The notes: generated by a model from the letters alone, not told the origin. Shown: positions 7,179 through 60,007, counted from the first letter of the stretch. The stretch is DNA of 64,000 nt from an uncultured Gemmatimonadales bacterium (GCA_963792265.1 CAWBVP010000018.1:16841-80840), one strand, 5' to 3'. Made by a program: numbers and translations.

Positions 7179-7338
7179 GTGAGAGGTGAGAGGTGAGAGG
7201 TGAGAGGTGAGTGAGGGTGAGCTCTCGGCGCATTCGGGATCAAAGGGGATACGGTCGGTCGGCAAAACGTTGGGCGGGAGCAATCACCTCTCACCTCTCA
7301 CCTCTCACCTCTCACCTCTCACCTCTCACCTCCCACTC
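7179..7338. repeat. inverted heptamer arrays: (GTGAGAG)n left arm, 62-bp spacer, (TCACCTC)7 right arm
   Basis: Read directly. 7179-7221 is GTGAGAG x4, then GTGAGTG, then AGGGTGAG. 7284-7332 is TCACCTC x7. Confidence 0.95.
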
Positions 7339-8237
7339 ATATCCACCACATTGTCCGACCAGGTCCCGTAGGCCAGCACCATCGTCCTCGCACGATAGCC
7401 CGGCGCCGTCACCCGCACGATCTGGCTGTGACACCGGTCCACCAGTTTGGGGTCGAAGCGGAGCCGGTAGTGGCCGGCGTCGTCGGCGAAGGTGGCGGAG
7501 CCGGTGCCGAGGAGTTGAAGGAAAGCACCGGGAACCGGCTGGCCATCGTGCTCGTTGCGCACCACTCCCTCGACCACCCCGTTCTCTGGACCGCCCCCGT
7601 CTGAGCCGGCGTCGTCTCCGTCCCAACTGCAGTGGGACCCGCCGCCCATCAGTGCCACCGGCCGGCCGGCCTGAACCGGGCCCGCCAGAGGCGCGTCCGT
7701 GGGCCCTTGCTTGGGGCCGAAGATGCGGCGAGCCTCGAGCACCATTGCGTCCTCGACCACCTCGCGGCGCTCCGGGGCCTCGGTCCTGGCTTCTGCTTTG
7801 GCCGGCCTCCGCTCCGGACTCATCGCGGCCGGATCATCGTTCTCGGGTGCCTTCGCGGTGGTGATCGGCGCCGGGAGCGGAGACTCCGGTGTCTTCGGCG
7901 GGGCCGCCTGAGCGGGCTTCGGAGCAGGGCGGGGTAGATGTGCTCTGGGTTTGGCCGCCACCGGCTTGGGCGGCACGTACATCATGGTGACTGCAACCGG
8001 CGTGGAATTTTGCTGTGGTCTATTTCCTGAGGGAGAGTGAGCGGGCCGAGTGGAGAACAGGAGCAACCCGATCACCAGAAGATGAAGACCTGCGCTCGCG
8101 ATCCCGGTCCGGAGGTTGAACCGGTATTTCGTGAGCGTCTCCCAGGCGCGAAAATACTGCGGCCGCTGGGGTCCCTGGCCCGCGGAGCGGGTGCGAGCAT
8201 TGAGGCCAAGGCCCAGAGGCCGGGTTCGACCGAACAC
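7326..8237 (-). CDS. membrane-anchored proline-rich protein with C-terminal carboxypeptidase-regulatory-like domain
   Basis: One TM segment (GLHLLVIGLLLF), a Pro/Ala-rich linker, then VVEGVVRNEHDGQPVPGAFLQLLGTGSATFADDAGHYRLRF. The stop and last codons lie inside the heptamer array. Confidence 0.6.
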   Translation of the reverse strand: MFGRTRPLGLGLNARTRSAGQGPQRPQYFRAWETLTKYRFNLRTGIASAGLHLLVIGLLLFSTRPAHSPSGNRPQQNSTPVAVTMMYVPPKPVAAKPRAHLPRPAPKPAQAAPPKTPESPLPAPITTAKAPENDDPAAMSPERRPAKAEARTEAPERREVVEDAMVLEARRIFGPKQGPTDAPLAGPVQAGRPVALMGGGSHCSWDGDDAGSDGGGPENGVVEGVVRNEHDGQPVPGAFLQLLGTGSATFADDAGHYRLRFDPKLVDRCHSQIVRVTAPGYRARTMVLAYGTWSDNVVDMSGR

Positions 8238-8239
8238 TC

Positions 8240-8770
8240 TTACCGCTTACTCCACTGCGCCCGTTCCGCTTTGTCCCGATTGTCTTTCCACTTCTTGTAT
8301 TGCTTCTGCTGGTCCTTGCTCAAAATGTCCTTCAATCCGTTATCGAAGGTCTCGTCCTGCTTGGCCAGCTCCTTCGACTGCTGGTCCATTCGATCCCGCT
8401 GGTCCCGGGCGGCCGAGCGATCGCCGCTCTCGAAAGCAGCCCGCATGGTTTGCACCTCGCTCCGGAGACTGTCGCGGGTGACCTTGGTGTTGGCCATGTA
8501 ATTCTGATACCGGCGGGTGTAGGTCTGGAGTGGAGTGCCATTCAGCCCGATCGAGTCTCGCATCACGTCGGGAGCTGCCGGGCCTTCGATGGTCTCCGAC
8601 GAGAGCATCCGGGAGCCACCCCCGTGGGAGCCCATGTGGCGGCCGTACCCGCCTCCCGCCCGCATGCCTGGATTCCCCGGGCCGTATCCGCCAGGCGAGC
8701 TTTGAGCCAGCGACGTGCTCACGAGACCAGTCCCCAGGATCAAGAAAAAGCCTATGGTAGTCAAAGACAT
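8240..8770 (-). CDS. secreted protein, possibly a Spy/CpxP-like (LTXXQ-type) periplasmic protein
   Basis: Signal peptide MSLTTIGFFLILGTGLVSTSLAQ. The C-terminal half is helical and charged, with LSKDQQKQY. Confidence 0.45.
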   Translation of the reverse strand: MSLTTIGFFLILGTGLVSTSLAQSSPGGYGPGNPGMRAGGGYGRHMGSHGGGSRMLSSETIEGPAAPDVMRDSIGLNGTPLQTYTRRYQNYMANTKVTRDSLRSEVQTMRAAFESGDRSAARDQRDRMDQQSKELAKQDETFDNGLKDILSKDQQKQYKKWKDNRDKAERAQWSKR

Positions 8771-15195: not shown

Positions 15196-15312
15196 GCGTG
15201 CTTAGCCTGAGGTGGAGTGGCCAGTGGGGCAGGGCAAGGCCCGCCGTCGGTCATCCTGCATAGTTACGAATCCAACATCCGAATTGGATTGGTTTCGCCG
15301 CCGGGATAGAGG

Positions 15313-15429
15313 GCTATTGGCCTATGCTATCGGCATTCGCTATTGGCTATTCGCAAAACGTCGGTGGAGTCCCAGCTGAGTTGGCCGAGCACTGAGCGCG
15401 ACGTAGCGGATAGCCAATAGCGATTACCG
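15313..15429. repeat. inverted repeat element with GCTATTGGC-type short repeats
   Basis: The left arm 15313-15354 contains TCGCTATTGGCTAT. The right arm 15406-15429 contains its complement ATAGCCAATAGCGA. The spacer is approx 51 bp. Confidence 0.85.
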
Positions 15430-17754
15430 AGACGCCCGGACCGCCGGACGCGGGCCGGGAGGCAGATTCTGCTCCAGGTAGTGGGTAAGCAGCGAGAACA
15501 GGTGCAGGGTCGTCCCGTTCGCCCTCGCAGATGCAGTGGGACCGGTTGGGATAATCCATCAGGGTGAACGGCTTGTTGGCAGCCACCAGGGCATTCACCA
15601 GCCGCTCGGTGGCCTGGTAGTGCACGTTGTCGTCGCCCGAGCCGTGCACCACGAGCAGATTTCCCCGCAGCTTGTCGGCGTAGGTGATGGCCGATCCCAC
15701 CCGATAGTCTTCCACGTTGTCCTGCGGCAGTCCCATGTAGCGCTCTTGATAGATGGTGTCGTAGAGCCGGAGCTCCGCCATCGGCGCCACCGCCATGCCG
15801 GTCTGATACAGGTCGGGATAGCGGAACATCAGGTTCAGGGTCATGCTGCCGCCGCCGCTCCAGCCCCACACGCCCACCCGGGTCGAGTCCACCCAGGGCC
15901 ACCCGCGCATGGTGCGGGCCGCGCCCGCCTGATCGGCGGTGTTGAGCACGCCCAGCTTGCGGTAGATCGCCTTCCGAAAGGCGCGTCCCCGGGGGGCGGG
16001 TGTCCCCCGGTTGTCCACCGAGGCGACGACGTAGCCCTCCTGGGTGAGCATCAGGTGCCAGAGGTAGTCGCCGGTCCAGCGATCGAGCACGGTCTGCGCG
16101 GCCGGCTCACCGTAGGTCAGGAAGAAGAGCGGATACCGCCGGGTGGAGTCGAAGTCGGCCGGCTTCATCACCCAGCCGTCGAGCTGGAGGTTCGAGCCGG
16201 CAGCGACTCTGACGAATCCAACCGGGCCCCGGCGCAGCCGGGCGACAGTCGCCCTGAGCCGCTGATTTCGAACCAGGGTACGCACCACCTGGTGGGAGGG
16301 AAGCCGCACCAGATCGACCACCGGAGGGGTGCCGAGCGAGGAGTAGGTGTGCAGGGCCCAATGGCCGTCCTGGGAGATCTGGTACAGGTGATATCCCGGC
16401 TGATTCTTCGGCGTGACCCGCTCCGGCTGGCCCTTGCCGTCGAGCCGGCTGCGATAGAGGTAGAGCTGGGTCGCGTTCGTCGGTGACGCGGTGTAGTAGA
16501 TGATGCCAGCCGCCGAGTCGACGCCTACCACGACGGGCTCGCCGAAGGGGCTGAAGGGATTGTGGAGGTCGAAGGCGCCTTTGGTGACCAGCCGGGTGCT
16601 CTTCCCATCCCGGGAGATCACGTAGAGATGGCGCCAGCCGTCCCGCTCGCTGATCCAGGTGAAGCTCTTGCCCCCTTCGATGAAGCGGAGGTCGTCGCCG
16701 ACGTCGACCCAGGCGCTGTCGCGCTCGGTGAGCACGGTGCGCATCTTCCCGGTCTGCGCGTTGCCCAACATCACCTCGAGGGTGTTCTGCGCCCGATTGA
16801 GATGTTGCAGCACGACCTCGCCGGAGCTGGCCGCCCAGTCCATCCGGACGATGTAGTTGTTGCGGGGGTCGCCGGGAACCTGCAGCCATACCGTGGGGCC
16901 TCCGCTGGCGCTGACCACACCGGCGCGCGCGGCGGAGTTGGTGGTGCCCGCCTTGGGGTACTGCACTGGAACGGTGAAGGAGTAGAGCGAGTCGGTGTCG
17001 TCCATCAGCAGGAAATCGCGCACCCCGGAGGCGTCGAGCTGCCAATAGGCGATGTGTTGCCCGTCCGGGCTCCAGCGGAACCCGTCGCGCAGATTCAGCT
17101 CTTCTTCGTAGACCCAGTCGAAGGTGCCGTTGATGATGGTGCGGGAGCCGTCGTGAGTGAGCTGGGTGATTCGGCCATCGCCCAGGTTCTCGACGTAGAG
17201 ATTGTTCTCCCGCACGTACGCCACCCGGCCCCCGTCGGGGGAAAACTTGGCGAACATCAGGGTGGATGGTTTGGCTTGGGCGCCGCCGAGCTTGGTGAGC
17301 CGCCAGCTGGCGAGATCGAGGGCCCAGAAATCGCCCCGGGTGTTCTGCCGCCAGACCTTCTTGGAGTTGGTGAAGACGAGGAGCCGGCGCCCGTCGGGTG
17401 AGACGGTGTAGTCCTCGACCGAGAGCGCGGCGGTATCGCCCGGTGGAATCAACCGGGTGGCCGGCACCCACACGTCCCGCTTCCCGGAGGCGGCGTCATA
17501 GCGCACCAGCGACCGTCCGCCCGGCACGGTGCTGTCGGCCTCCAGCTTCACGTAGGCGGGGCGGTCCTCCAGCCAGCGCACCGGTCCCAGCCGCTCGGGG
17601 GTGAAGTCACTCGAGTTGAAGAGCCGGTCGAGCGTAACCAGCGAAGAATCGGCGGCCTGTTCGGGGTGGGCTCCTGCGCCGGCAGCGCGGCGCAAACCGA
17701 AAGACTCAGCGCGATGGTGGATGAGAGCAAGCGGACATTGAGCACAAACCTCAC
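15424..17754 (-). CDS. dipeptidyl-peptidase IV (S9B family), apparent frame changes at both ends
   Basis: DPP-IV N-terminal propeller plus the GVWGWSGGGSMTL serine motif. The signal peptide MRFVLNVRLLSSTIALSLSVCAALPAQ (start 17754) is in another frame. So is the family-typical C-terminus GTTLHLFSLLTHYLEQNL (stop about 15424). The uninterrupted ORF itself spans 15347..17785. Confidence 0.85.
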
Positions 17755-20554: not shown

Positions 20555-20620
20555 AGCTACTCCGGTAAAAGGGACTTTAAAATAGCTCGGTTGAGATGGA
20601 AACCTGAAAGGAAGCAAATC

Positions 20621-20809
20621 TTCACCACAAGGCAAGAGACACAGAGGGATCATCTAGCCATACGGCTCACGACATCGCGATCTCCGGCATCGCAACAACT
20701 TTGTGCGGGGTAAAAACTAACAACAAATAATTCTGGTTGATGATGGTCGGCTCCCGCGATGTCGTGAGCTCGTTCGGATGAGGAGCCCTCTGTGTCCTCT
20801 GTGGTGGAA
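20621..20809. mobile_element. MITE-like nested inverted-repeat element (copy 1), no coding capacity
   Basis: Outer arms are TTCACCACAAGGCAAGAGACACAGAGGGATCATC and GATGAGGAGCCCTCTGTGTCCTCTGTGGTGGAA. Inner arms are GCTCACGACATCGCG (20665-20679) and CGCGATGTCGTGAGC (20755-20769). The centre is AT-rich. Confidence 0.6.
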
Positions 20810-20813
20810 ATTC

Positions 20814-21556
20814 TTATGAGATTATCTGCGTTAACCACCCCGCAAACGCCAGCCACGCCGGCGTCCCCGAGATCATCAGCCGCAGCGGCTGCGACACCAC
20901 AAGCGCCAGGCCGCCCCAGAGCGTGGCGGGATGAACCTTTCTGAGAGTGAGCAGGTCGTATCCCACCATCACCACAATGAAGAGGTCGGACAAGCCGAAG
21001 AAGTGGGTGGGCCACCCAGATGAAATCGGGCGATCGGGGCGGCCAACAGCCCGATGGTGCCGAGGAGCATCAGCCGCTTGTGGGTCTCGAGCCGGCGGCG
21101 GAAGTAGAGCGCGCTGCCCACCAGACCGGCGAACATAGCCATGTCGAACAGCGGTATGGCGAGGAAGGAAAGGCCCGATACGCCGGGAATCGGCGCTGAG
21201 CCGCCCTTGACCCGGAGGATGGCGGTCAGCGACCCCATGACGAACACGAGCAGGGCGAGCACCGCTCCGGCCACGCCCATGCGGCGGTGGATGTACGTCC
21301 GGCCGGTGGCGACCAGGCTGGTCTGCGCCACCAGGAAGAGCACCCAGGTGGTGAACACCACGCCGTGGATATGGAGCAGCGTGCTCAGCTCCGGCGTGCC
21401 GTAGTAGGCCTTGAGGAAATAGGTCCGGGAGAATCCGGCGAACACGGTCAGCGCGATGGCGATCGCCATGCCCACATAAAAGCGGCGCGCTCGCCGGGCG
21501 GCGACGACCCGGGGTGGCACCCTCAGGCCTGCATCCAGGGCGGATTCATTTCTCAT
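20814..21556 (-). pseudogene. polytopic membrane protein, frameshift near 21005
   Basis: 195-aa ORF with multiple TM segments. It continues as WPTHFFGLSDLFIVVMVGYDLLTLRKVHPATLWGGLALVVSQPLRLMISGTPAWLAFAGWLTQIIS in another frame. Confidence 0.55.
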
Positions 21557-25342: not shown

Positions 25343-25443
25343 CGCGGGTGAATCTAGTGCTACAGTCGGCGCAGTTTGAATCACCAGGGTCAGGCTAGGC
25401 GCTGGTGGTAGGAGCGAATGACTGGGGAGTTTTGTGGCAGCTC

Positions 25444-25470
25444 TTCCCGTCCTTCCCGTCCTTCCCGTCT
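25444..25470. repeat. 9-bp tandem repeat TTCCCGTCC x3
   Basis: Read directly. It lies between the amine oxidase stop (25480) and the GT9 start (25342). Confidence 0.9.
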
Positions 25471-32184: not shown

Positions 32185-32242
32185 AGGGAAACTCGAATGG
32201 GGAAGGCAGTCTGCGGGTCGCGATTGCCAAGTCACAAGCGGC

Positions 32243-32320
32243 GTGATGTGAACGTAAGCGGTAACCGGGAAACAGCTACCCGCTCACCGCTTACGCTCTT
32301 TCTGTTCCCGCTCACGCTTT
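32243..32320. repeat. inverted-repeat element (GTAAGCGG/CGGGAAAC left arm; CTCACCGCTT ... CCGCTCACGCTT right arm)
   Basis: CGTAAGCGGT (32253-32262) pairs with ACCGCTTACG (32286-32295). The right-arm motifs are shared with 50386-50416. Confidence 0.8.
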
Positions 32321-33127: not shown

Positions 33128-33153
33128 GAGAAACTCCTTGGAGGAGGAGAGCC

Positions 33154-33209
33154 GGGAGCTGGGAGTGGGAGAATGCTGGGAGTGAGCGCATAGCGGATAG
33201 CGCATAGCT
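33154..33209. repeat. heptamer-phased array GGGAGCT GGGAGTG GGAGAAT GCTGGGA GTGAGCG CATAGCG GATAGCG CATAGCT
   Basis: Read directly, upstream of the GlcG-like gene. I found no inverted partner nearby. Confidence 0.7.
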
Positions 33210-36400: not shown

Positions 36401-37735
36401 ATGCGCCGCCTTCTCGTAGCCACCGCGTTCGTGTTGTTGACCGGTCAGCCGCTCCAGGCCCAGCACCTCAAGGACAAGCTCTCCGAGCTGTTCATCTTCG
36501 GATCCAATGGCGTCCCGCTCAACCTGGGCGGCAGCAGCAGTCCCAACAATCCCGCGTCGGTCCAGATCCACGGCAACCATTTCATCCCGGCGGCGGTCGC
36601 CAGTAACGGCACCATCATCTCGTTCCTGACCAACTCGATCGGCAGCAACGTCTCCAACGTCCCGGTGAGCGCCACCAGTGGCGGCTCCACGTTCAGCTTT
36701 CAGGGTGGCGTGCCCACCCGGACGTCGACCTCCTCGGGCCCGATCCTCGGCGAGCGGGCTCAGACCCTGGGCCGGGGCCGGATGCTCGCGGGCCTTGCCC
36801 GCACCGGCGTGCACTTCAAGACCCTCCGGGGGGTGGATCTCAACCATCTGCGCTTCACCTTCACCCACGCCAATACCGACTTCCCGGGGTGCGACTCGAT
36901 TGCCGGCGGAGACTGCTCCCTGCTCGGGCGTCCCCACGCTGGAGAACGAAACGATCGACCTGAACCTCGCGCTGGACGTCCAGCTCAACGTGACTTCCTT
37001 CCTGCTCACCTACGGCGTGAGCGACCGGATCGACGTGGGTGTCGTCCTCCCACTGGTGTCGATCTCGTTCGACGGCACCAGCAACGCGCAGATCAATCCC
37101 TTCGGCCCGCCACCCGCGGTGCACTTCTTCGGCGGGACTCCGGACAATCCCATTCTCACCGCCAGCCGGACCGTGGATGGGTCTTCCACCGGTCTGGGCG
37201 ACGTCGATGGCCGGGTCAAGGTGAGCCTCCGCCGGGGAGAGCCGCTCTCGGTCTCAGTGCTGGGTGACGTCCGCTTCCCCACCGGCAGCGAAAGCAACCT
37301 GCTCGGCTCCGGCGCCTGGGCGGCTCGAGGACTTGCCATCCTCTCGGCCCACTTCGGCGCCTTCTCGCCCCACGCGAACTTCGGCTACCTCTACCGCGGC
37401 GGCCAATTCGAGAACGACGCGGTGCTGGCGACGCTCGGCTTCGACCACCTCATGGCGCCCTGGGCGACGCTGGCCATCGACGTCCTGTCGGCGCTGCAGG
37501 TGGGCGAGAGCCCGCTCCAGGTGCCCGGCCCGGTGATGTCGAGGCCCCCTACCACCGGGAGATCATCCCCACGGTGATTCCCGACAGCCGGGACGATATT
37601 GTCGTGGGCTCGGTGGGCATGAAACTCACCGCTGCGTCTGGACTCACCTTCGTGGCTAACGGGGGATGGTCGCTTAATCGTGGTGGATTACGGCCCGACG
37701 TGATTTGGACGGGAGGGTTAGAGTACAACTTCTAG
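36401..37735 (+). pseudogene. outer-membrane beta-barrel protein, frame changes near 36930 and 37535
   Basis: Signal peptide MRRLLVATAFVLLTGQPLQAQ. Alternating beta-strand pattern. The terminal ...GGLEYNF aromatic residue is in a third frame. Its TAG stop at 37733 sits in a TCTAGGG repeat-like unit. Confidence 0.6.
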
Positions 37736-38202
37736 GGTGAGCAGAGAGCTGTGAGCTAGTGGGTCTAGGGTCTAGGGTCTGGGGTCTAGGTCGAGGGAAG
37801 ATGCCCGTTGGCTTGGCAGGTAGCGCCTGGTGGAGTTTCTGGAGCATGCCGCGTATAGAGTGGATCTCAGCAACAATGCCCGACGCAACCGGTGACTCTA
37901 GGTATCGCAGGTCACCTGCCAAAAGCAGTTCGCATTCAAGTTCTGAGAGCGAGCCCAGACTGATTCGAACGAAGCGTCTGAGCTCGATGTCTCCCATGCG
38001 ACCGCAACCTTCTGCGAGGTTTGCTCGACACCGACACAGCTGCACGGCGCATTTGAGAGCTGAGGCCATACCGCTCCGCAGAGGGGAAAGTGCCGGTCAG
38101 TTTGTAGACTGAAGCCACCAGCTTCTGGCTCTTCTGCCAGACTTCGAGCTTCCTGAAATCCCCCACCATCTCCCTCCAGCTTGCGTCTCCGACAATCTTC
38201 AT
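37674..38202 (-). pseudogene. four-helix-bundle protein (23S rRNA intervening-sequence protein / Avd-like family), frameshift near 38035, 3' end uncertain
   Basis: DFRKLEVWQKSQKLVASVYKLTGTFPSAERYGLSSQMRRAAVSV continues in another frame as ANLAEGCGRMGDIELRRFVRISLGSLSELECELLLAGDLRYL. As read, the ORF runs through the left arm to 37674. The other two frames hit TAG inside the arm. Confidence 0.8.
37756..37795. repeat. left arm of cassette: GGGTCTA GGGTCTA GGGTCTG GGGTCTA GGTCGAG
   Basis: Read directly. The heptamers occupy 37761-37795. Confidence 0.95.
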
Positions 38203-38252
38203 TTCTCGAGACTAAAAGCATTAATGCTCTCACCCAAGTCGGATCATTTTTG

Positions 38253-38290
38253 CGCTAGACCCTAGACCCTAGACCCTAGACCTCACCTCA
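38253..38290. repeat. right arm of cassette: TAGACCC x3, TAGACCT, then CACCTCACC
   Basis: Read directly. 38255-38282 is the reverse complement of the left arm. Confidence 0.95.
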
Positions 38291-50295: not shown

Positions 50296-50417
50296 CAGTG
50301 TGAGCGGGACGGGAAACGGGAGGCGGGATACGTCCCCTCGAACTGGTCAGGTCGATCCTGCGGGCTCGACTAGCTCTACTCGCCCCTCACCGCTTCACTG
50401 TCCTCCGCTCACGCTTC
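50296..50417. repeat. inverted-repeat element (GTGAGCGGGACGGGAAACGGGAGGCGGG left arm; CTCACCGCTT...CCGCTCACGCTT right arm)
   Basis: Read directly. The right arm contains the TGA stop of the ligase gene (50387). Motifs are shared with 32243-32320. Confidence 0.8.
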
Positions 50418-52006
50418 AGCAATGCCCTCACCGTCTCAATCGTATCCGCCTCTTCCGCCTTCTTGTCGGTCCGCCAGCTCGCCATCCGGGGAAACCGCAC
50501 CGCGATTCCCGACTTGTGCCGGCTGGAGCGCTGGATGCCCTCGAAATGCAGCTCGAAGACCAGCTCCGGCTTGACCGTGCGCACCGGGCCGAACTTCTCC
50601 AGCGTGTTGCGCCGGACGAAGGCGTCCACCTTGCGGATCTCCTCGTCGGTCAGCCCGGAGTACGCCTTGGCGAACGGCACCAGGTGATTCCCCTCCCAGA
50701 TCCCGAAGGTGTAGTCGGTAAAGAGTCCGGCGCGCTTGCCGCTGCCCGGGCTGGGCGTAGATAGCACCGCATCCACGGTGAGAGGATCCACCTTCCACTT
50801 CCACCAGTCCCCCGCCGCCGGCCGACGCCGTACTCGCGAGGATAGCCGCTTGAGCATGAGCCCCTCGGCACCGGCGTCCCGAGCGCCGCGGCGAGCCTCG
50901 GTGAGCTGCTCCCAGTTGGCGGCGGTCGACCGCGGGCGACAGCATGAGCCGCCCGCCGCGGCACCGACTCGAGCAAGGCGGCCAGCCGCGCTGCGCCGCT
51001 CGCTCAAGCGGAAGCGACCGGACGTCGGCGCCGGCTTCCTCCAGCAGGTCGTAGGCCACCAGGACCGACGGGCACCTCGTCCAGAATCTTCCGGCCCAGA
51101 TTCTTCCGCCCGATACGGCGCTGGAGCTGGGCGAAGGGCAGGGGGCCGCCATCCACCCAGGGAAGCAGCTCGCCGTCGATGACGGTGCCCTCGGGAAGCA
51201 GCGCGCCGATCTCCTCCACCTCGGGAAACCGGCCGGCCAGCAGCTCTTCGCCCCGCGACCAGAGAAACGTGCGCCCCGCCCGGCGGATCAGCTGGGCCCG
51301 GATGCCGTCCCACTTCCATTCCGCGATCCACTCCTGCGAGTCGCCCAGGGAGGCGGGCTCCGCCCTCCAGCGGATGCGCCAGGAAGAACGGGTAGGGCCG
51401 GCTCACATCGGCGTCCCGGGTATCCGGCGCGATCAGTCGCTGGAAGAATTCCGGCGGTCGGCTCCCACGCGCCCATGAGCCGATGGGCGATCACGCCCTC
51501 GTCCACCCCGCTCACCTCGGCCAGCGCCCGGACGACCAGCCGCTGCGAGGCGCCCACCCGGAAGCTTCCGGTGATGAGCTTGTTCCAGACGAAGCGCTCC
51601 TGCCGGTCCAGCTCCCGCCAGGCGCGCACCATGCACCTCGCGCTGCACGTCATCGTCCTCGCCCCGGAGGCGGAGCAGCCGCTCCTCGACCCAGTGCGCC
51701 AGCGAGCAGCTCGCTCGACTCGCCGGTCGTCCGGCAGGAGCAGGGTGATGGTCTCGGCGAGATCGCCGACCGCGTGGTAGCTCTCCTCGAACAGCCAGTC
51801 GGGGATACCGGCCTCTTCCGCCGCCCAGGCGGCCAGCTTGCGGGATGCCGACCAGCCGCTTGGGGCGCCGGCCGCTGAGGAAGTGCACCGCCCAGGCGGC
51901 GTCGGCCGGCGGGGCGCTGCGGAAGTACGTCGACCAGCGCCGCGACCTTCTCGTTGGTGGCGGTGGTCTCATCGATCGCGGCGAAGAGCCGAGCGAAGCT
52001 CTTCAC
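50387..52006 (-). pseudogene. ATP-dependent DNA ligase (ligase-associated damage-response type); many frame changes
   Basis: KSFARLFAAIDETTATNEKVAALVDYFRSAPPADAAWAVHFLSGRRPKRL, LEWKWDGIRAQLIRRAG, GTVIDGELLPW, EGLMLKRLSS, WWKWKVDP and RFPRMASWRTDK lie in several frames. The suggested start is the GTG at 52006. Confidence 0.85.
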
Positions 52007-52008
52007 AG

Positions 52009-53065
52009 GCTCGAGCAGCTCGCTCGCTGCTCCGCTTCCCGGCTGCCCCGCCTCTTCGGCCACCTCGTCGTCCCGCTCGCCCTCGAACCGGGTCTGGACC
52101 GCCTTCGCGTCGATGCCCTTCTCCTGGAGCCAGCGCACCACCGGCCCGGTGTAGCCGTGGGTCACCCAGACCTCGCCGGCTCCGGTGGCCTCGATCGGCG
52201 CCGAGCAGGCTGGGCCAGTCCACGTGGTCGGAGAGGGGGAAGCCCCGGTCGAGCGAGCGCCGCCGCCGGGCGCCCCGCACCAGCATCCAGCCCGAGGCGA
52301 AGCCGGTCGAGTAGGGCGCCGAACCGCCGGAGCCAGGGCGAGCCGCTCGGAGTGGGGAGGCGCGATGACGATGGCGCCCCGGGAATCGGCTTTGCGCTCG
52401 GCGGTGCCGGCATACCGGGTCGGCGGAAGCGCGATGCCGGCGTCGCGATAGGCGCGCGGTCATCCGTTCCACCGCGCCGTGGGTCAGGATCGGTCCGATC
52501 GAGGGATCCAGTCCCGGCGAGCAGACGTTGCGCCTTGCCCAGGGTGTAGCCGAAGAGGAGGCTGGTCTTCCCGCCGGCCGCGTTGGCTCGCCACCAGGCG
52601 TTGATCTCCTCGAATACCTCGGCCTGCGGGGGCCAGCGATAGATCGGGAGCCCGAAGGTGGACTCGGTGACGAAGGTGTGGCAGCGAACCGGCTCGAACG
52701 GAGTGCAGGTGGGATCGGGATCGGTCTTGTAGTCGCCCGAGACGACCCACACCTCGCCCCGGTGCTCGATCCGCACCTGGGAGGAGCCCAGGATGTGGCC
52801 GGCCGGATGCAGCGAGACGGTCACGCCGTTGAGGGAGACCGGCTCGCCGTAGGCAATGCCCCGAATCGCTCGCCCCAGGCTCAAGCCGCGCGCGCAGGAC
52901 GCCGACGCCCGCGGAGCGGAGGTGAGGTAGGCGCTGCGAGCCCCAGCTGGCGTGGTCGCCATGCGCGTGGGTGATGACGGCGCGATCGACCGGCTCCCAG
53001 GGATCGACGAAGAAGTCGCCGGCTTCGCAGTAGAGGCCGCGGGCGGTGAGGGCGAGTAACGGCAT
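52009..53065 (-). pseudogene. ligase-associated DNA damage response exonuclease (MBL/beta-CASP fold); several frame changes
   Basis: MPLLALTARGLYCEAGDFFVDPWEPVDRAVITHAHGDHA, VTVSLHPAGHILGSSQVRIEHRGEVWVVSGDYK, CHTFVTESTFGLPIYRW and VWVTHGYTGPVVRWLQEKGIDA. The 3' boundary with the ligase is not resolved. Confidence 0.8.
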
Positions 53066-53076
53066 TCTGAAAAGTA

Positions 53077-53117
53077 AGGCGGAGACGGCGGAGAAGGCGG
53101 AGTAGGGCTCCGCCTTC
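53077..53117. repeat. 9-bp tandem repeat (AGGCGGAGA x3) ending in a 10-bp perfect hairpin
   Basis: The units span 53077-53103. GAAGGCGGAG (53093-53102) pairs with CTCCGCCTTC (53108-53117). Confidence 0.9.
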
Positions 53118-53607
53118 CTGCCTGTGCTGATACGTCCCCATGATGCTTCCCTGGGCCAGGATGTGTTGGTCCATGGCCTTCTCCAGCTCGGCTCGGGTCA
53201 TGCCTGGCAGGCAGGTTGAGGAGGATGTCGAGGGCGTAGAGCCGGAAGAAGTAGCGGTGCGGCTTACCCGGAGGCGGACAGGGTCCGGCATAGGCGAGGT
53301 CGCCCGCGGTATTGCGGCCGTGGCGCGCGCCGGAGGGAAGCTCCGGCAGGGTGGGGACGGCCCGGGCCAGCTCCACCGTTTCCTTCGGGATGTTGTAGAG
53401 CACCCAATGGACGTAGGTGCCCCGCGGCGCGTCGGGATCTTCGCAGATCAGCGCAAAGCTGCGGGTCTGGACCGGCGCTCCGCTCCACTGGAGCGGGGGA
53501 GAGATGTCGTCGCCCTCGCAGGTGTAGAGATACGGAATCCGTCCTCCCTGCTCGAAGACCGGGGAGGTCAGGGTGATTTCGGCGGCTCTGGATTCGGTGC
53601 TGGTCAT
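53118..53607 (-). pseudogene. YbhB/YbcL (PEBP, Raf-kinase-inhibitor-like) family protein; frameshift near 53210; stop codon not identifiable
   Basis: RIPYLYTCEGDDISPPLQWSGAP...ALICEDPDAPRGTYVHWVLYNIP...GPCPPPGKPHRYFFRLYALD, then GMTRAELEKAMDQHILAQGSIMGTYQ in another frame. Confidence 0.8.
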
Positions 53608-54543: not shown

Positions 54544-57410
54544 ATCGTCAGCGGACCAGCCTGGATGGTGAGTGGGAGTTCTTTCCGGATCCGAAGCAAA
54601 ATCTCAGCCTCAAGAATCTCCCGGAAACCGACGTCCGGAAGATCCGGGTCCCGGGTCCGTGGCAGGCCCAGTTCGACGATCTTCGAGACTACAGCGGGGT
54701 GGCGTGGTATCGGCGTCGTTTCGAGCGTCGGGACGAGGAGCCTACCGCCTTACCGCCTGTCCCGCCCTACCGCCATCCTCCACTTCGGCGCCGTCGACTA
54801 CCACGCCACCGTCTGGCTCAACGGCCAGGAGGTCGGCGAGCACGAGGGGGGCTACCTCCCCTTTGAGCTCGACGTCAGCGAGGCCCTCCGCCCCGGGGAC
54901 AGCAACGAGCTGGTGGTCCGGGTGCTCGATCCCGGCAACGACGCGGATCTCCCCGATTTCAGCTTCGCCGAGATCCCCCATGGAAAGCAGAGCTGGTACG
55001 GACCGATCGGCGGTATCTGGCAGAGCGTCTATCTCGAGCGGCGATCCCCCACCCATATCACCCGTCTACGCATGACCCCGGATGTCCCGGGCGAACGGGT
55101 GCGAGTGGACGTTCACCTCAGCCAGCCGACCGACCAGCCCGTCGGCCTCTGGCTCAACGTCACCGATCCGCGAGGCCAGGTACGGCGGCACCGGTTCGTG
55201 TTGGGAACCGGCCGGGAGAGCGCAGCGAGCTGACGATCCCGATCCCCGAGCCGATGCTCTGGGACACCACCACCCCCAACCTCTACGAGCTGCAGGCCTC
55301 GCTGCTCGACGGCAGCGACGACCGGGCCGAGCCGCTCGACGTGTACTCGTCGCGTTTCGGCATGCGCACGATCGGCACGTCGCCGTCAGGGCACCTGCTG
55401 CTGAACGGCCGGGTGCTCTACGTCCGGGGCGCCCTGGATCAGGACTATTACCCCCACCTCATCTACACGCCCTTCAGCGATGACCAGCTGGACGATCAGT
55501 TCGCCAAGGCCAAGCAGATGGGGCTCAACCTGCTGCGGACCCATATCAAGATCACCGACCCCCGCTACTACGATGCCGCCGACCGCGCCGGGATCCTGAT
55601 CTGGACCGAGCTTCCCAACTGGCAGGACCTGACGGAGGCGGCCAAGCGCCGGGCCAAGGAGACCATGTTCGGCATGGTGGAACGGGACTGGAACCATCCT
55701 TCCATCGTGATCTGGACCATCGTCAATGAGAACTGGGGTGTGGACCTGGCGGTAAACGCGAGCCACCGGGCCTGGCTGGCCGACATGTACACCCAGCTCA
55801 AGACCCTGGACCCCTACCGACTGGTGGTGGGCAATTCGCCCTGTTTCACCAATTTTCACGTGGTTACCGACATCGAGGACTTTCACAACTACTACGCGAT
55901 GCCGGACCACTACAAGAAGTGGAAGGACTGGGTCCAGACCTTCGCCAGCCGACCGCCGTGGACCTTTGCCCACGTGTACGAGAGCATCGAGTCATGGCGC
56001 CAGTACATCCGGGATCCCTGGAATCCGCTGCCCCGGCAGCAAGCCCCCGAAGTACACCGGCGGGGGAGCGAGCCGATGGTGGTCTCGGAGTTCGGCAACT
56101 GGGGCCTGCCCGACGTCGCGAAACTGAAGGAGTGTTACCACGGTGAGCCCTGGTGGTTCGAGACCGGAATCGAGTGGGGCGACGGCGTGGTGTACCCCCA
56201 CGGGATCGAACAGCGGTTCAAGGCATTTCATCTCGACAAGGTGTTCCCCACGCTCTCCGACCTGTCCGCCGCCAGCCAGCGGATGCAGTTCACCGCGCTC
56301 AAGTACCAGATCGAACAGATGCGGCGGCATCCCAGCATCGTGGGTTACGTCATCACCGAATTCACCGACGTGCATTGGGAGAGCAACGGATTGCTGGACA
56401 TGTGCCGCAACCCGAAGACCTATTTCGATGTCATCGGGCAGGTGAACAACCCCGACGCCATCGTGCCCACCGACTGGGAGCGGATCGCCTTCTGGGAAGG
56501 CGAGCGCTGTGAGGTGCGGTTGGCGCTGTCTCACTTCTCCTCCAGCGACCTCCGCGGCTGCCGGCTGGAGTGGAACCTCGACGTGTGGCCGGAGATTCAC
56601 GGCTCATTCGAGGGGATCATCCCCGAGCGGGCCCAGCTGACCAACCTGGGCACCGTGGTCTTCGAGGTGCCCTGGGTGGAGCACTCGGTGCGGGCCAGGC
56701 TGGAGATGCGCCTGCTCAGCGCCGGGGGCGAGGTGGTGACCCGGAATCACCACGAGCTCTACTTTTTCCCTCGGCTGGCCCCGAGCGAGCGGCCGCTCCG
56801 CATTTCGGTCCCGGGGTTGCCCCGCCTGGCCGCCCGGCTCGCGGCAATGGGCTACGAGCTCACCGACGACAGTTCCGCCGACCTCGTCGTAGTCGAGCGG
56901 ATGACCGACGATCTTCGCTGGTACGCCCAGAATGGCGGGAGGGTGCTGTGGCTGGCCGAGTCGCCTGAGGCGCAGCAGGCGCACCTGGGGGCCATCAGCA
57001 TTGCGCAGAGGAGTGGACGGAGCTGGCAGGGTGACTGGGCCAGCAGCATGAGCTGGATCCGGCAGGACAAGCTGTTCGGCAGCATCCCCACCGGCGGCAC
57101 GGTGGACTTCGCTTTTGCCGATCTCACCCCGGAGACGGTGATCGTCGGGCTGAGCCCTCGCGACTTCGCGGCCAACGTGCACTCGGGACTGTTTGTGGGC
57201 TGGGTGCACCACATCGTGGCCCTGGTCGCTGAGCGGCCGATCGATCGGGGGCGGCTGATGATCTGCACCTATCGGCTCCGCGATCACCTGGGCACTCACC
57301 CCGTGGCGACCATCATGATGCGCGACATGATCGCCCGAATGGCCAACGTGGCCGCCGCCGAGCCGGCACGGTGGGAGCCCGGAACCATCCCACCGGCGGC
57401 GATCTCGTAA
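54540..57410 (+). pseudogene. glycoside hydrolase family 2-like enzyme; frame changes near 54750 and 55220
   Basis: LDGEWEFFPD...GVAWYRRRF, ILHFGAVDYHATVWLNGQEVGEHEGGYLPFELDV, LWDTTTPNLYEL, FLLNGRVLYVRGALDQDYYP, GLNLLRTHIK and WNHPSIVIWTIVNENWG. Confidence 0.8.
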
Positions 57411-57489
57411 CCAACACGCCCGCCTGCGGCGGGCCTACATGATTGGATTGGCGTTGAGGGCCGGCTGCGCGTCCAAGCGCAACGATACG

Positions 57490-57513
57490 AAAAGCCCGTC
57501 GGTTACGACGGGC
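57490..57513 (-). terminator. intrinsic terminator of the GH1-like gene (stop codon in the loop)
   Basis: Minus strand reads GCCCGTCG-taac-CGACGGGC followed by TTTT. Confidence 0.65.
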
Positions 57514-59920
57514 GTGACAGCATGGCGCGACGGAGCTCGTCCGCGTACGGCTCGCACAACACCCGTTCGAGCCGGTTCGCGCCGTCCACCCGCAGATCCC
57601 ACAGCCCGCTGTTGTGCCAGTGGTTGGGGTCTTCCCAGTCGGGCCGATCGATGATCGGATAGATGCAGACCCCCTCCATCGGCACGCCCAGCTCCCGGGC
57701 GAGGCGCACCTCCTCCGCCACCTCCGCGATCCAGCGCCCCCGTCCCGCACCGAAGTGGCTGGTCTCCGACACAATCATGGGCCGGTCATACTTGGCGAAG
57801 ACCTCCGCCAGCAGGTAGCGCAGCGGGATCCAGCGCCGGTCCCGGGGCACGTCTTCCCAGCGCAGCCGCTGATCGGGGTACTCCCACTCGTTGGAGTGGT
57901 AGAAGTTCACCCCGATGACATCGAGGTAGCGCGGGTGTCCGCCGAGTGATGGGTCGAGACCGCCGGCGAGCATGTCCCAGGCGTCGAACTGCCGGGCGCG
58001 CTGGTCGGCCGCCGCCCGGGCCAGCTCGGGATGTCCTTTCGGCGGGATGACGTGGATCAGCGGATCCACCTGGATCATCCGGGCTCGGGGATCCACCTCC
58101 CAGATCGCTTCCATGCCGGCGATGGCAGCCCGGACCAACTGCTGCTTGATTTCGCCGCCCCGGCCGCGGGCGTAAGGGAAAATGTAGCCCTTCTCGCCAG
58201 TGGCCCACGCGAGGAAGGAGATCTCGTTGATGGGAACGTAGAACGGAACCGTGTCGGTGTGGTCCGAGATGACCCGCGCAACCGCGCCGCAGTAGCGAGC
58301 AAAGCGCTCCACGAACCCGGAGGTGAAAAGGCTCACGTCCTCCGGCCAGCCGTAATGGCACAGATTCCAGATCACCTGAACCCCTTTTTGTTCGGCGGCC
58401 TGCACCATCGGCAGCAGGGAGGAGAAATCCATCCGCCGTCCCCGATCGATCAGGTGCCAGCGGATCCCCTCCCGCACGGTTCGAATATCCATGGCCACCA
58501 GGCGGGCGTAGTCCTCGGCGATCATCTCGTCGTGCTGCGTCGCCGCGATCAGGTCGAGCCGTTCGCCCCGGGAGTTGATGTGACAGGAGGACTCGAAGCC
58601 GGCCATCCAGAAGGAGCGGAAGAGTCGGGAGTCGTCAGTCATGAGGTTCGGCATGGTCGAGGACTCTTCGACACCGATATTGCCGATTGCTGCCTCGGAG
58701 TCGGTCACATAACTCCGGAACTGCTCGACCAGCGGCGTCGCCCGCCAGCGCTCGGTCCCATCCAGCGTGTACAGCCCGAGATCCAACCGGTACTCGTCGA
58801 GCGGCCCGCGGCCGAAGCGGTACTTCCAGTCGATCATGGTGAAGAGGGGAAACCAGGTGTAGCCCAGCACGGGGATGCCCCGGCCGCGGAGCACCCGGAT
58901 GGCGGCGACGGACGCCTCGAGCCAGCGGGCTCTGATCGATTCGTCGCCTTTGGCGCTGGTCTCGGTGACCATGATCGGCAGCTGATAGCGGGTGTAGTAA
59001 TCCTCGATCAGCTGGCTGAATCCGGCGCCGTCCTGCTCCACTGGCTGATACGCCAGCCGGCCCCGCCGGTCGATGTAGAGCTGGGTAGTGGACCACTGGG
59101 GATAGAAGTTGAGTCCCATCAGGTTGAACGGCACCGGCCGGGAGGCAATGGAGGCCAGCCGGTCGGGAGAGGCGCCACTGCGTACCAGCCAGGGGAACAG
59201 CGGATGACTGGGGGTGACTCGGCCGGTCAGAAGATCGTAGGCCAGAAAGGTGCGGGACTGTTCCTCCCGGGCCACCGCATGCAGATCCTCCCGCGCGGTC
59301 CGGCTCAAGCCGGTCGCTTCGACATGCACCAGCACTATGTTGGGATCGACCGAGAGCAGCGCGGCGCTGGTTTGGATGATCCCCTCAACGACCTGGAGCA
59401 GGATCTGGACGTAGCCGCTCTCACTGCGAAGGTAGGGGGGCCAGAGCCCCCGCTGCCCGCAGAAGAGGGCGGTCACGATCGGCTCATTGAGGGGGGTGTA
59501 CCAGCGGACCAGTCCGGCGTAGCGGCGGGCAAAAGCCGCGGCGTAAGCCGCCACCGCGGCGGGGTAATCGTCACTGGCAAATTCGCGGCGCAGCCAGAAG
59601 GGGCACCCGTAATGCATCAGGTCCACGATCGGGGTGATTCCCAGGTCGTGGACCATGTAGGGGATCACCTGATCGGTCCACCGCCAGTCAAACTCACCGG
59701 GCTGAAACGGCTCCAGCCGGTACCAGGGCACCCCCCAGCGGACCATCTTGAGCCCGAGGTTGCGCACCAGGGTGAGATCCTCGCGCCAGTGGTCGTAGTG
59801 GCCCATGAGCTGGTATTCGTCCAGGGCGCGGTGGCCCGGCCGAGTCTGGGGCACAAAGGTGTTCTCGATCCCGGTGGCCCACAGGAAGTCCTCGGGACGG
59901 CGGCGGAGTAGGTCGGTCAT
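57503..59920 (-). CDS. tandem fusion of two GH1-like (beta-glucosidase-fold) domains
   Basis: N-terminal half: FLWATGIENTF...WYTPLNEP...IMVTETS. C-terminal half: FWMAGFESSCH...YVPINEIS...MIVSETS. The ATG is at 59920. Confidence 0.75.
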   Translation of the reverse strand: MTDLLRRRPEDFLWATGIENTFVPQTRPGHRALDEYQLMGHYDHWREDLTLVRNLGLKMVRWGVPWYRLEPFQPGEFDWRWTDQVIPYMVHDLGITPIVDLMHYGCPFWLRREFASDDYPAAVAAYAAAFARRYAGLVRWYTPLNEPIVTALFCGQRGLWPPYLRSESGYVQILLQVVEGIIQTSAALLSVDPNIVLVHVEATGLSRTAREDLHAVAREEQSRTFLAYDLLTGRVTPSHPLFPWLVRSGASPDRLASIASRPVPFNLMGLNFYPQWSTTQLYIDRRGRLAYQPVEQDGAGFSQLIEDYYTRYQLPIMVTETSAKGDESIRARWLEASVAAIRVLRGRGIPVLGYTWFPLFTMIDWKYRFGRGPLDEYRLDLGLYTLDGTERWRATPLVEQFRSYVTDSEAAIGNIGVEESSTMPNLMTDDSRLFRSFWMAGFESSCHINSRGERLDLIAATQHDEMIAEDYARLVAMDIRTVREGIRWHLIDRGRRMDFSSLLPMVQAAEQKGVQVIWNLCHYGWPEDVSLFTSGFVERFARYCGAVARVISDHTDTVPFYVPINEISFLAWATGEKGYIFPYARGRGGEIKQQLVRAAIAGMEAIWEVDPRARMIQVDPLIHVIPPKGHPELARAAADQRARQFDAWDMLAGGLDPSLGGHPRYLDVIGVNFYHSNEWEYPDQRLRWEDVPRDRRWIPLRYLLAEVFAKYDRPMIVSETSHFGAGRGRWIAEVAEEVRLARELGVPMEGVCIYPIIDRPDWEDPNHWHNSGLWDLRVDGANRLERVLCEPYADELRRAMLSRPS

Positions 59921-59930
59921 AGGAAGGAAT

Positions 59931-60007
59931 AGTAAGAGGTGAGAAGTGAGAGGTGAGAGGGGTGTCAACCTGATCCTCTCGCCTCTCACCTCTCACCCCT
60001 CACTCGC
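59931..60007. repeat. imperfect hairpin built from GTGAGAG-type heptamers
   Basis: AGTAAGAGGTGAGAAGTGAGAGGTGAGAGGGGTG, 10-nt loop, CCTCTCGCCTCTCACCTCTCACCCCTCACTCGC. The right arm contains the TGA stop (60000) of the upstream gene. Confidence 0.9.

What the first reader, a model, noticed from the sequence alone, without database searches (positions are those of the whole stretch)
7179..60007. A family of intercistronic arm-spacer-arm elements built from short-period (7-9 nt) repeats, whose arms donate the stop codon of the upstream gene
At least seven loci share one architecture: a short tandem array, a 10-470 bp spacer, then the reverse-complement array.
- 7179-7338: GTGAGAG type.
- 59931-60007: GTGAGAG type.
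- 37756-38290: GGGTCTA type, the only one with a gene inside.
- 15313-15429: GCTATTGGC type.
- 32243-32320 and 50296-50417: GTGAGCGG/CGGGAAAC type.
- 20621-20809: nested inverted repeat.

Half-elements or bare arrays occur at 25444-25470, 33154-33209 and 53077-53117.

In six cases the arm nearest the upstream gene contains or directly abuts that gene's stop codon, reading that gene's coding strand:
- 7326 gene: TGA in GAGGTGA.
- 60000 gene: TGA in GAGTGAGG.
- Ligase 50387: TGA in GGTGAGGGG.
- Kinase 38283: TGA in GGTGAGGTGA.
- OMP 37733: TAG in TCTAGGG.
- DPP-IV corrected stop at about 15424.

A GTGAG core recurs in several otherwise different units. A heptamer that carries a stop triplet shows a stop in every frame within 21 nt, so these arrays act as frame-independent translation stops as well as long stems.

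Whether this is a functional design (mRNA stabiliser, processing site, or decoupling of cistrons) or the footprint of one mobile family is inference.
Basis: partly seen in the sequence, partly recalled or inferred. Interest (0 to 1): 0.7.

Follow-up and report, generated by a model that had tools for sequence, protein, structure and literature searches.

The report
Heptamer-repeat hairpins between genes
The window, from a Gemmatimonadales bacterium, carries several long hairpins between genes whose two arms are runs of 7-8-base repeats; the same architecture surrounds every copy I examined of a small "intervening-sequence protein" gene in five phyla, including a true insertion in 23S ribosomal RNA, which suggests that three separately described oddities are one kind of element.

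Summary
It is weak for 50296-50417. The 20621-20809 locus belongs to a different repeat family.

In 920 kb of related Gemmatimonadales DNA I found 52 such elements:
- Period 7 dominates.
- 50 of 52 have the G-rich arm first on both strands.
- Most arrays lie outside predicted genes, almost always next to a gene's 3' end.
- Spacers are unrelated between loci.

At one orthologous junction the hairpin is present in about ten relatives and absent in nine. Its unit differs between relatives (GTGAGAG, GTAAGAG, GTGAACG, GTGAGCGG), yet the two arms stay complementary.

The gene inside 37756-38290 is a frameshifted 23S-rRNA-intervening-sequence protein (PF05635). About 19 other loci with this gene in five phyla are bracketed by arrays of the same polarity. 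One is a genuine 23S rRNA intervening sequence.

Best reading: these are intervening-sequence-like, slippage-prone hairpins of the cyanobacterial STRR type. They are transcribed within operons and are probably cut by RNase III.

"Stop-codon donation" is a side effect. About 40% of units carry no stop, and the native stop position is conserved in relatives that lack the element.

The parts
7179..7220 (.). G-rich arm on the + strand, GTGAGAG x4.7 plus degenerate units. On the transcribed (-) strand it is the 3', C-rich arm. It ends 8 nt before the ATG (7168-7170) of a response-regulator gene.
   Evidence: TRF; inverted repeat; sequence; Pfam PF00072 for 6742-7170(-)
7221..7283 (.). 63-nt spacer (loop) of element 1. 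It is unrelated to the spacers of other elements.
7284..7338 (.). C-rich arm on the + strand, TCACCTC x7.6. On the - strand it is the 5', G-rich arm (GAGGTGA)n. It contains the TGA (7326-7328) that ends ORF 7326-8237(-).
   Evidence: fold -94.2 kcal/mol, z = -8.7
15312..15430 (.). GGCTATT-type (period 7) arm-spacer-arm element with arms 15312-15354 and 15406-15430. It lies between the DPP-IV gene and an ECF sigma-factor gene, both on the - strand. The same unit forms elements in L068 and arrays in L123.
   Evidence: fold -60.9 kcal/mol, z = -6.5
32236..32313 (-). GTRAGCGG-type hairpin. The main stem is 32251-32265 / 32284-32298, with an outer helix 32236-32241 / 32308-32313. It lies between the stop of an HbpS-like gene (32330) and the start of an amidohydrolase gene.
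   Evidence: fold -43.1 kcal/mol, z = -5.7
37731..37790 (.). Left (G-rich) arm of the gene-carrying element: GGGTCTA x4.3 at 37761-37790, preceded by outer GTGAG-type units at 37731-37757.
   Evidence: I6, I7
37797..38212 (-). Cargo gene: a 23S-rRNA-intervening-sequence protein (four-helix-bundle, PF05635), broken by a 1-nt frameshift.
   Evidence: Pfam E = 7.5e-33 after correcting one base; tblastn; homologues at up to 90% identity
38255..38296 (.). Right (C-rich) arm: CTAGACC x4 at 38255-38282, followed by outer CTCAC units at 38283-38296.
50296..50417 (-). Weak, degenerate GTGAGCGG-type hairpin after the ORF that ends at 50387. Membership is doubtful.
   Evidence: fold -56.3 kcal/mol but z = -2.5
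53066..53118 (-). Short hairpin with stem 53108-53118 / 53092-53102. Its C-rich arm continues as CTCCGCCTT x3.4. It is orthologous to full 8-mer elements (GCGGGTAA / CCCGCTTA) in L002 and L003.
   Evidence: fold -25.1 kcal/mol, z = -3.0
59931..60007 (-). GTGAGAG-type hairpin with arms 59931-59960 and 59975-60007 and a 14-nt loop. The TGA of the UGM-like gene (60000-60002) lies in the 5' arm of the - strand RNA. The ATG of the GH1 gene (59918-59920) lies 10 nt after the 3' arm.
   Evidence: fold -55.8 kcal/mol, z = -7.5; orthologous junctions
25443..25469 (.). Bare array CTTCCCGTC x3 with no inverted partner and no structure.
   Evidence: z near 0 on both strands
33149..33208 (.). Bare G-rich arrays (GAGCTGG, AGCGCAT) in a divergent intergenic region, without structure.
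   Evidence: z = -0.5

Best explanation
The loci are members of a widespread class of hairpin elements whose arms are tandem arrays of 7-8-nt units. Cyanobacterial STRR hairpins show the same architecture. So do the intervening sequences (IVS) of 23S rRNA that carry a PF05635 gene.

SHOWN
- Each element has a G-rich array, an arbitrary spacer and the complementary C-rich array. This order holds on both strands.
- The elements fill short junctions, mostly inside operons or between convergent genes. The outer edge sits at the upstream stop codon. The next start codon follows 3-39 nt after the second arm.
- Copy number changes between closely related populations, independently in the two arms.
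- The unit turns over at one junction while the arms stay complementary.
- The loop can carry a PF05635 gene.

INFERRED
- The element is transcribed with its neighbours and folds into a 20-60-bp, near-perfect RNA duplex.
- Like an rRNA IVS, that duplex is cut by RNase III. The cut would separate the cistrons and leave stem halves at the new ends.
- Because the insert is self-complementary, it is tolerated in tight junctions.
- Stops in the G-rich arm are a consequence of its composition.
- The G-first order may be kept because a C-rich, G-poor first arm would recruit Rho before it could pair.
For: ARCHITECTURE AND STATISTICS
- Arrays and inverted repeats in the window.
- Fold z-scores of -5.7 to -8.7.
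- 127 arrays in 920 kb of Gemmatimonadales DNA, with period 7 in 82 and period 8 in 29.
- 52 unique elements, 50 of them G-first.
- In other phyla, 70 arrays are G-first and 6 are C-first.
- 93 of 127 arrays lie mostly outside predicted genes, against 11.7% non-coding DNA. Stops lie within 17 nt of the arm in 42 of 46 cases. Downstream starts follow 3-39 nt after the arm.

TURNOVER
- Census of the UGM-like to GH1 junction.
- Copy number differs between samples.

LINK TO IVS AND PF05635
- The spacer ORF is PF05635 (E = 7.5e-33).
- Homologues at 74-83% identity sit at three different Gemmatimonadales loci, all between GGGTCTA/GGGTCGA and TAGACCC arrays.
- Dormibacteria, Bacteroidota and Flavobacteriales loci.
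- Gemmatirosa and 13 cyanobacterial plasmid loci.
- The Azospirillum locus lies inside LSU rRNA (Rfam RF02541) and has period-7 arms.

LITERATURE
- STRR hairpins of 7-bp repeats occur between hupS and hupL, with stability or coupling suggested as their role: PMC2670836.
- An IVS is bordered by a 28-bp stem, carries S23p and is cut by RNase III: PMC4990558.
Against: - No transcript or cleavage data exist for any of these loci. RNase III processing is inferred only by analogy with rRNA IVS.
- Sense and antisense RNA folds are equally stable (15 vs 11 elements; 80 vs 65 G-U pairs). Nothing here shows that selection acts on RNA rather than DNA.
- In the L204 family the two arms differ systematically, with one G.A mismatch per unit. 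Perfect pairing is therefore not strictly maintained.
- The Gemmatimonadales set is biased. Twenty loci were picked by a GTGAGAG search and 80 by one gene.
- Gene calls come from my own crude codon-usage caller.
- Most elements carry no PF05635 gene, so the link from 'empty' hairpins to IVS rests on shared architecture alone.
- The Rho argument for the polarity is untested.
Confidence: 0.5

Rival explanations
1. Adaptive design at each junction. The hairpins are selected as mRNA stabilisers, translational-coupling devices or insulators, and the stop-bearing arm acts as a frame-independent translation stop.
For: - Stops lie inside or next to the arm in 42 of 46 cases.
- Units with an inbound stop make up 31 of 52, against 33% expected.
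- The hairpin brings the stop and the next start to the base of one stem.
- Stability or coupling has been proposed for STRR hairpins (PMC2670836).
Against: - About 40% of units have no stop. Among non-trigger elements the excess is small, 17 of 38.
- Nine relatives do without the element at the same junction, with a 17-46-nt gap or overlapping stop and start.
- The native stop position is conserved whether or not the element is present.
- Copy number drifts between samples.
Confidence: 0.2
2. Pure mutational by-product. Slippage-prone repeats grow in place around pre-existing hairpins or terminators, and the arms are kept alike by template switching. There is no mobility and no function.
For: - Spacers are unrelated between loci, and several contain classic terminator hairpins (L137).
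- Units differ between loci.
- The element-free junction in L140 reads TAAGAGGTG, which is one unit of GTAAGAG.
- Heptamers are the commonest long simple repeats in prokaryotes (Mrazek 2007, as cited in PMC4679880).
Against: - It does not explain the near-absolute G-first order.
- It does not explain why one PF05635 clade sits between the same GGGTCTA arms at three unrelated loci.
- It does not explain why every PF05635 gene examined in five phyla is bracketed.
- Arms in the L204 family are homogenised separately, which argues against frequent copying between arms.
Confidence: 0.2
3. A family of miniature transposable elements (MITE or REP/REPIN type), mobilised in trans by a transposase.
For: - The elements are dispersed, intergenic and palindromic, with presence or absence polymorphism.
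- The same unit occurs at many loci.
Against: - There is no conserved internal sequence.
- No target-site duplication is visible.
- Arm length and unit are highly variable.
- No transposase lies next to any element examined.
- The arms are arrays, not a fixed terminal repeat.
Confidence: 0.05
4. Rho-independent transcription terminators.
For: - The elements lie at gene 3' ends, and 13 of 45 are between convergent genes.
- Some copies have TTTT after the second arm (L125, L132, L133).
Against: - None is called terminator-like. Ordinary terminators in the window sit elsewhere, at 3085-3107 and 57418-57513.
- Most elements lie inside apparent operons, with the next start 3-39 nt away.
- Stems of 30-60 bp with loops of 10-140 nt are far outside the terminator norm.
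Confidence: 0.05

Closest known systems
Cyanobacterial STRR (short tandemly repeated repetitive) sequences, in particular the STRR hairpins between hupS and hupL
   Same: - Tandem 7-bp units that are dispersed and intergenic.
- They can form a hairpin inside an operon.
- Their function is unknown (PMC2670836).
- Cyanobacterial PF05635 loci show exactly the window's architecture.
   Different: - The phylum is Gemmatimonadota and the units differ.
- In the papers I could read, STRR are described mainly as direct arrays.
- The G-first rule and the PF05635 cargo are not mentioned there.
Intervening sequences (IVS) of 23S rRNA, with or without the S23p/PF05635 ORF
   Same: - A long stem formed by terminal complementary sequences.
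- An optional PF05635 ORF in the loop.
- Sporadic distribution among close relatives (PMC4990558).
- The Azospirillum IVS has period-7 arms with the purine-rich arm first.
   Different: - The window's elements lie between protein-coding genes, not in rRNA (no Rfam hit).
- RNase III excision is not shown for them.
- Most have no ORF.
Intergenic TAACTGA heptamer repeats of Beggiatoaceae, Cyanobacteria and Bacteroidetes, and long simple sequence repeats in general
   Same: - Heptamer arrays close to start codons in intergenic regions.
- The unit contains stop triplets.
- The phylogenetic spread is patchy and includes Bacteroidetes and Cyanobacteria (PMC4679880).
   Different: Those are almost all direct repeats, 169 direct against 1 indirect in that genome. 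Here the inverted pair is the rule.
REP/REPIN and MITE elements
   Same: Dispersed intergenic palindromes at gene 3' ends.
   Different: The elements here have no conserved core and no fixed terminal repeat. The arms are variable arrays.

Membership tests
STRR-type repeats | Tandem repeats of a heptanucleotide unit | tested here: met
   Period 7 in 82 of 127 arrays and period 8 in 29
STRR-type repeats | Many dispersed copies, mainly in non-coding DNA | tested here: met
   Five to seven loci in 64 kb. 93 of 127 arrays are mostly outside predicted genes, against 11.7% non-coding DNA
STRR-type repeats | Found in heterocyst-forming cyanobacteria with the classical units (from memory: CCCCAGT, TTGGTCA, CAACAGT) | tested here: not met
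   The organism is Gemmatimonadales-like. The units are GTGAGAG, GGGTCTA, GGCTATT and others
rRNA intervening sequence (IVS) | Inserted in a helix of 23S (or 16S) rRNA | tested here: not met
   No rRNA or any Rfam family in the window. The elements lie between protein-coding genes
rRNA intervening sequence (IVS) | Bordered by complementary sequences that form a long stable stem | tested here: met
   Arms of 22-35 nt at 86-100% complementarity. Folds of -43 to -94 kcal/mol
rRNA intervening sequence (IVS) | May carry an ORF of the S23p / PF05635 family | tested here: met
   Element 37731-38296 only: PF05635, E = 7.5e-33
rRNA intervening sequence (IVS) | Excised from the transcript by RNase III | not testable with these tools
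   Needs RNA end mapping or an in vitro cleavage assay
rRNA intervening sequence (IVS) | Sporadic presence among close relatives | tested here: met
   About 10 junctions with the element and 9 without it
MITE | Copies share a conserved internal sequence and fixed terminal inverted repeats | tested here: not met
   No spacer-to-spacer similarity except between orthologues
MITE | Target-site duplication | tested here: inconclusive
   None is evident by eye at the window loci. No matched empty and filled site was compared base by base
REP/REPIN | Associated RAYT transposase in the genome | not tested
   Only 64 kb of the genome is available
Intrinsic terminator | Short G+C-rich stem, small loop, then a U tract | tested here: not met
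   No array hairpin appears among the terminator-like sites

The most novel reading that the evidence does not exclude
STRR-type heptamer hairpins, 23S rRNA intervening sequences and the stand-alone 'four-helix-bundle / S23p' genes are one class of element, spread over at least five phyla. The element is a bracket of (G-rich unit)n ... (C-rich unit)n that can sit empty or carry a PF05635 gene. It colonises rRNA helices and intercistronic junctions alike, is removed from transcripts by RNase III, and may spread by recombination between arrays of occupied and empty brackets.
Probability: 0.4. Interest if true: 0.8.

Novelty: new variant of a known kind. Interest (0 to 1): 0.66.

Why it matters
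- If the reading holds, it gives a common explanation for three long-standing puzzles: what STRR repeats are, how rRNA intervening sequences relate to the rest of the genome, and why PF05635 genes are so numerous.
- It makes these questions testable in cultured Gemmatimonadota and cyanobacteria.
- These arrays break short-read assemblies. Contigs L001 and L134 end at them, and most contigs with PF05635 homologues are under 3 kb.
- The C-rich arm has no stop codons, so ORF callers run through it and misplace gene ends and starts. An example is ORF 6742-7233, whose real start is at 7170.
- A hairpin with one fixed arm order and stops in all frames could also serve as a compact intercistronic insulator.

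Tried and rejected
- Exact-protein look-up of the window's UGM-like gene found nothing.
- Two related contigs had no DNA available.
- Rfam gave no match for the window or for the 20.4-21.0 kb repeat.
- Literature searches found no paper on these elements. I searched for the repeat itself, for Gemmatimonadetes repeats and for PF05635/TIGR02436. Vioque 1997 on STRR in RNase P RNA is not held.
- The sense-versus-antisense folding test, meant to separate RNA-level from DNA-level selection, showed no bias.
- A conserved core in the spacers, as a MITE would have, was not found.
- I tested whether the heptamer identity follows the PF05635 clade. The two GTGAGAG-flanked proteins (L078, L097) are not specifically related, so I rejected the idea.
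- I considered a telomerase-like 'healing' origin for the G-rich 3' extensions. I set it aside because no reverse transcriptase is nearby and native intergenic sequence is retained between the arms.

Full report
THE WINDOW AND ITS SOURCE

The window has 62-70% G+C. Its UGM-like oxidoreductase (60000-61523, - strand) has homologues at 80-95% identity. The named ones come from Gemmatimonadales metagenome-assembled genomes. The window has no Rfam match.

It shows many apparent frameshifts. They fall in the PF05635 gene, the GH2 gene, the PBP gene and the ligase region.

CHECK OF THE OBSERVATION

| Locus | Arms | RNA fold (kcal/mol) | z |
|---|---|---|---|
| 7179-7338 | GTGAGAG x4.7 / TCACCTC x7.6 | -94.2 | -8.7 |
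| 59931-60007 | GTGAGAG type | -55.8 | -7.5 |
| 15312-15430 | GGCTATT, really period 7 | -60.9 | -6.5 |
| 32236-32313 | GTRAGCGG type | -43.1 | -5.7 |
| 37761-37790 / 38255-38282 | GGGTCTA x4.3 / CTAGACC x4 | arms not folded | - |
| 50296-50417 | degenerate | -56.3 | -2.5 |

Other points:
- Markov simulations of the window gave no exact arrays of period 6-10, against three observed.
- 20621-20809 has no tandem arms. It is 72% identical to 45610-45800, so it is a different dispersed repeat.
- The 'bare' array at 53077-53117 is a short hairpin, orthologous to full 8-mer elements in two relatives.
- 25443-25469 and 33149-33208 are bare and unstructured.

THE FAMILY BEYOND THE WINDOW

An exact search for (GTGAGAG)x3 in one genome per species hit its 120-locus limit. 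The hits were almost all from these groups:
- Bacteroidota
- Verrucomicrobiota
- Planctomycetota
- Gemmatimonadales
- Acidobacteriota
- Armatimonadota
- Chloroflexota
- Cyanobacteria

Only single hits came from Pseudomonas, Streptomyces and Bacillota.

In the 20 Gemmatimonadales loci the arrays are nearly always paired as (GTGAGAG)n, spacer, (CTCTCAC)n. The same 8-kb blocks hold further inverted pairs with other units:
- GAGCAGG
- GATGGGA
- GGCTATT
- AGATGGG
- GTGAAAA
- AAGAAGT
- several 8-mers

I added 80 metagenome loci found through the UGM-like gene. The Gemmatimonadales set is then 920 kb with 127 arrays, 82 of period 7 and 29 of period 8. It holds 52 non-redundant arm-spacer-arm elements.

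Findings on this set:
- Fifty of the 52 elements have the G-rich arm first, and 46 have the purine-rich arm first. An inverted repeat reads the same on both strands, so this is a true property of the element and not of its orientation.
- In the other phyla, arrays with a partner are G-first 70 times and C-first 6 times.
- 93 of 127 arrays lie mostly outside predicted genes, although only 11.7% of the DNA is non-coding.
- Contexts are 27 co-directional, 13 convergent and 5 divergent.
- The elements fill their junctions. The stop of a gene that faces an element lies in the arm or no more than 2 nt before it in 26 of 46 cases, and within 17 nt in 42 of 46. A downstream start follows 3-39 nt after the second arm.
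- None is called terminator-like. The window's ordinary terminators sit at the convergent junctions 3085-3107 and 57418-57513.
- Spacers (3-141 nt) share no similarity between loci, and some contain classic terminator hairpins.

Caveat: gene calls come from my own codon-usage caller, and the sample is biased by how the loci were found.

ONE JUNCTION FOLLOWED THROUGH RELATIVES

I followed the junction between the UGM-like gene and the GH1 gene through the relatives.

| State of the junction | Where |
|---|---|
| GTGAGAG/GTAAGAG hairpin | window, L125, L133, L002 (= L129/130), L142 |
| GTGAACG/GTGAACA hairpin | L132, L139 |
| GTGAGCGG-like hairpin | L127 |
| GGCGGTAA x10 running to the contig end | L134 |
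| degenerate remnant | L135 |
| no element, 17-46 nt or overlapping stop/start | L003, L140, L143, L145, L147, L148, L149, L165, L194 |

- Only relatives with at least 81% protein identity carry the element.
- The protein's stop sits at the same position in relatives with different units or without the element. The arm therefore abuts a native stop rather than donating one.
- In L139 a mixed GTGAACA/GTAAGAG pattern is mirrored in both arms. The arms change together.
- The element-free L140 junction reads TAAGAGGTG, which is one unit of GTAAGAG.

THE GENE INSIDE 37756-38290

After removal of one extra A, the spacer ORF is a 23S-rRNA-intervening-sequence protein (PF05635, E = 7.5e-33).

Close homologues (74-83% identity) lie at three different Gemmatimonadales loci:
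- CoaE/TK
- an M23-peptidase locus
- the kinase/OMP locus, orthologous to the window's site

All three are bracketed by GGGTCTA/GGGTCGA arrays upstream and TAGACCC arrays downstream. Copy number differs between samples, independently in the two arms.

More distant PF05635 genes are bracketed too:

| Source | Arms or context |
|---|---|
| Dormibacteria (L097) | GTGAGAG x16 / CCTCTCA x10 |
| Flavobacteriales (L098) | AAGCGTG / CACGCTT |
| Gemmatirosa kalamazoonensis plasmid | GGGCAGGA / TCCTGCCC |
| Cyanobacterial plasmid loci | cas6-IVP-cas4, cas10-IVP-cmr3 and nrdB-IVP-nrdA (IVP = the PF05635 gene) |

Two loci show only one arm. One is cut by the locus end and the other lies next to an IS element.

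The Azospirillum lipoferum hit lies inside LSU rRNA (RF02541), so it is a genuine IVS. Its arms read GAGGACG GATGACA GAGGACG GAGGACA and TCCTCTG TCTTCTG TCATCCG TCTTCTG. They have period 7, with the purine-rich arm first.

The heptamer does not follow the protein clade.

HOW IT MOST LIKELY WORKS

Shown: the architecture, the fixed arm order, the position in junctions, slippage-type copy-number change, unit turnover with complementary arms, and the PF05635 cargo.

From the literature: rRNA IVS are bordered by a long stem, may carry S23p, are sporadic and are cut out by RNase III (PMC4990558). STRR hairpins of 7-bp repeats occur inside cyanobacterial operons, with stability or coupling proposed as their role (PMC2670836).

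Inferred: the window's elements are transcribed within operons, fold into near-perfect duplexes of 20-60 bp and are cut by RNase III. Being self-complementary, they are tolerated in tight junctions.

Stops in the first arm follow from its G/A/T-rich composition. Only 31 of 52 units carry one, against 33% expected.

The G-first order is unexplained. One testable idea is that a C-rich, G-poor first arm would load Rho before it could pair.

I found no evidence for RNA-level selection. Sense and antisense folds are equally stable.

COMPARISON WITH WHAT IS KNOWN, AND NOVELTY

- Heptamer arrays (STRR, TAACTGA repeats, long simple sequence repeats) and IVS are each known.
- I found no paper that describes the fixed arm order, these elements in Gemmatimonadota, or the bracketing of PF05635 genes by heptamer arrays. 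The library lacks most subscription journals, so prior description cannot be excluded.
- I rate this a new variant of a known kind.

VERDICT

- 'Stop donation' is a side effect.
- The most interesting result is the link between heptamer hairpins, PF05635 genes and rRNA intervening sequences.

Noticed in passing
window 20610-20815 and 45610-45800: Two copies (72% identity) of a dispersed repeat with non-tandem inverted arms (core CACCACA..GACACAGAGGGATC..GCTCACGACATCGCG). It has no Rfam match and is a different family from the heptamer hairpins.
   Followed up: partly
window 30163-30767: A long tandem repeat of 21/42-nt units (about 25 copies). It probably encodes a 7-residue protein repeat on the - strand.
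   Followed up: no
window 54743-54774; L003 16737-16806: Short-period arrays lie inside the GH2 coding sequence, about 180-250 nt from the annotated start in both genomes. In L003 they form an inverted pair (CGGTCGGC / CTGACCGA). In the window the reading frame changes inside the array.
   Followed up: partly
window 38040 region, 53066-53607, 54565-57410, 50387-52161: There are many apparent frameshifts or missing stops: the PF05635 gene, the PBP gene without an in-frame stop, a split GH2 gene and a fragmented ligase region. They suggest indel errors in the assembly or real pseudogenes.
   Followed up: partly
window 37731-37757 and 38283-38296: The GGGTCTA element with its PF05635 gene is nested between outer GTGAG / CTCAC units, as if it had been inserted into the loop of an older hairpin.
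   Followed up: no
L140 (junction after the UGM-like gene): The element-free junction reads TAAGAGGTG (stop, GAGG, GTG start), which is one unit of the GTAAGAG repeat. The commonest unit, (GAGGTGA)n, is also complementary to the conserved 16S rRNA 3' end as I recall it.
   Followed up: no
L229, L230, L238, L233 (cyanobacterial plasmids): Array-bracketed PF05635 cassettes sit inside operons: cas6-cas4 in Pseudanabaena and Anabaena sp. 90, cas10-cmr3 in Picosynechococcus, and nrdB-nrdA in Nostoc edaphicum.
   Followed up: partly
L001 end, L134 end; contig lengths: Contigs end in or next to the arrays, and most contigs that carry close PF05635 homologues are under 3 kb. These repeats break short-read assemblies.
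   Followed up: no
window 3085-3107 and 57418-57513: Ordinary terminator-like hairpins with T tails lie at two convergent gene junctions, separate from the array hairpins.
   Followed up: no
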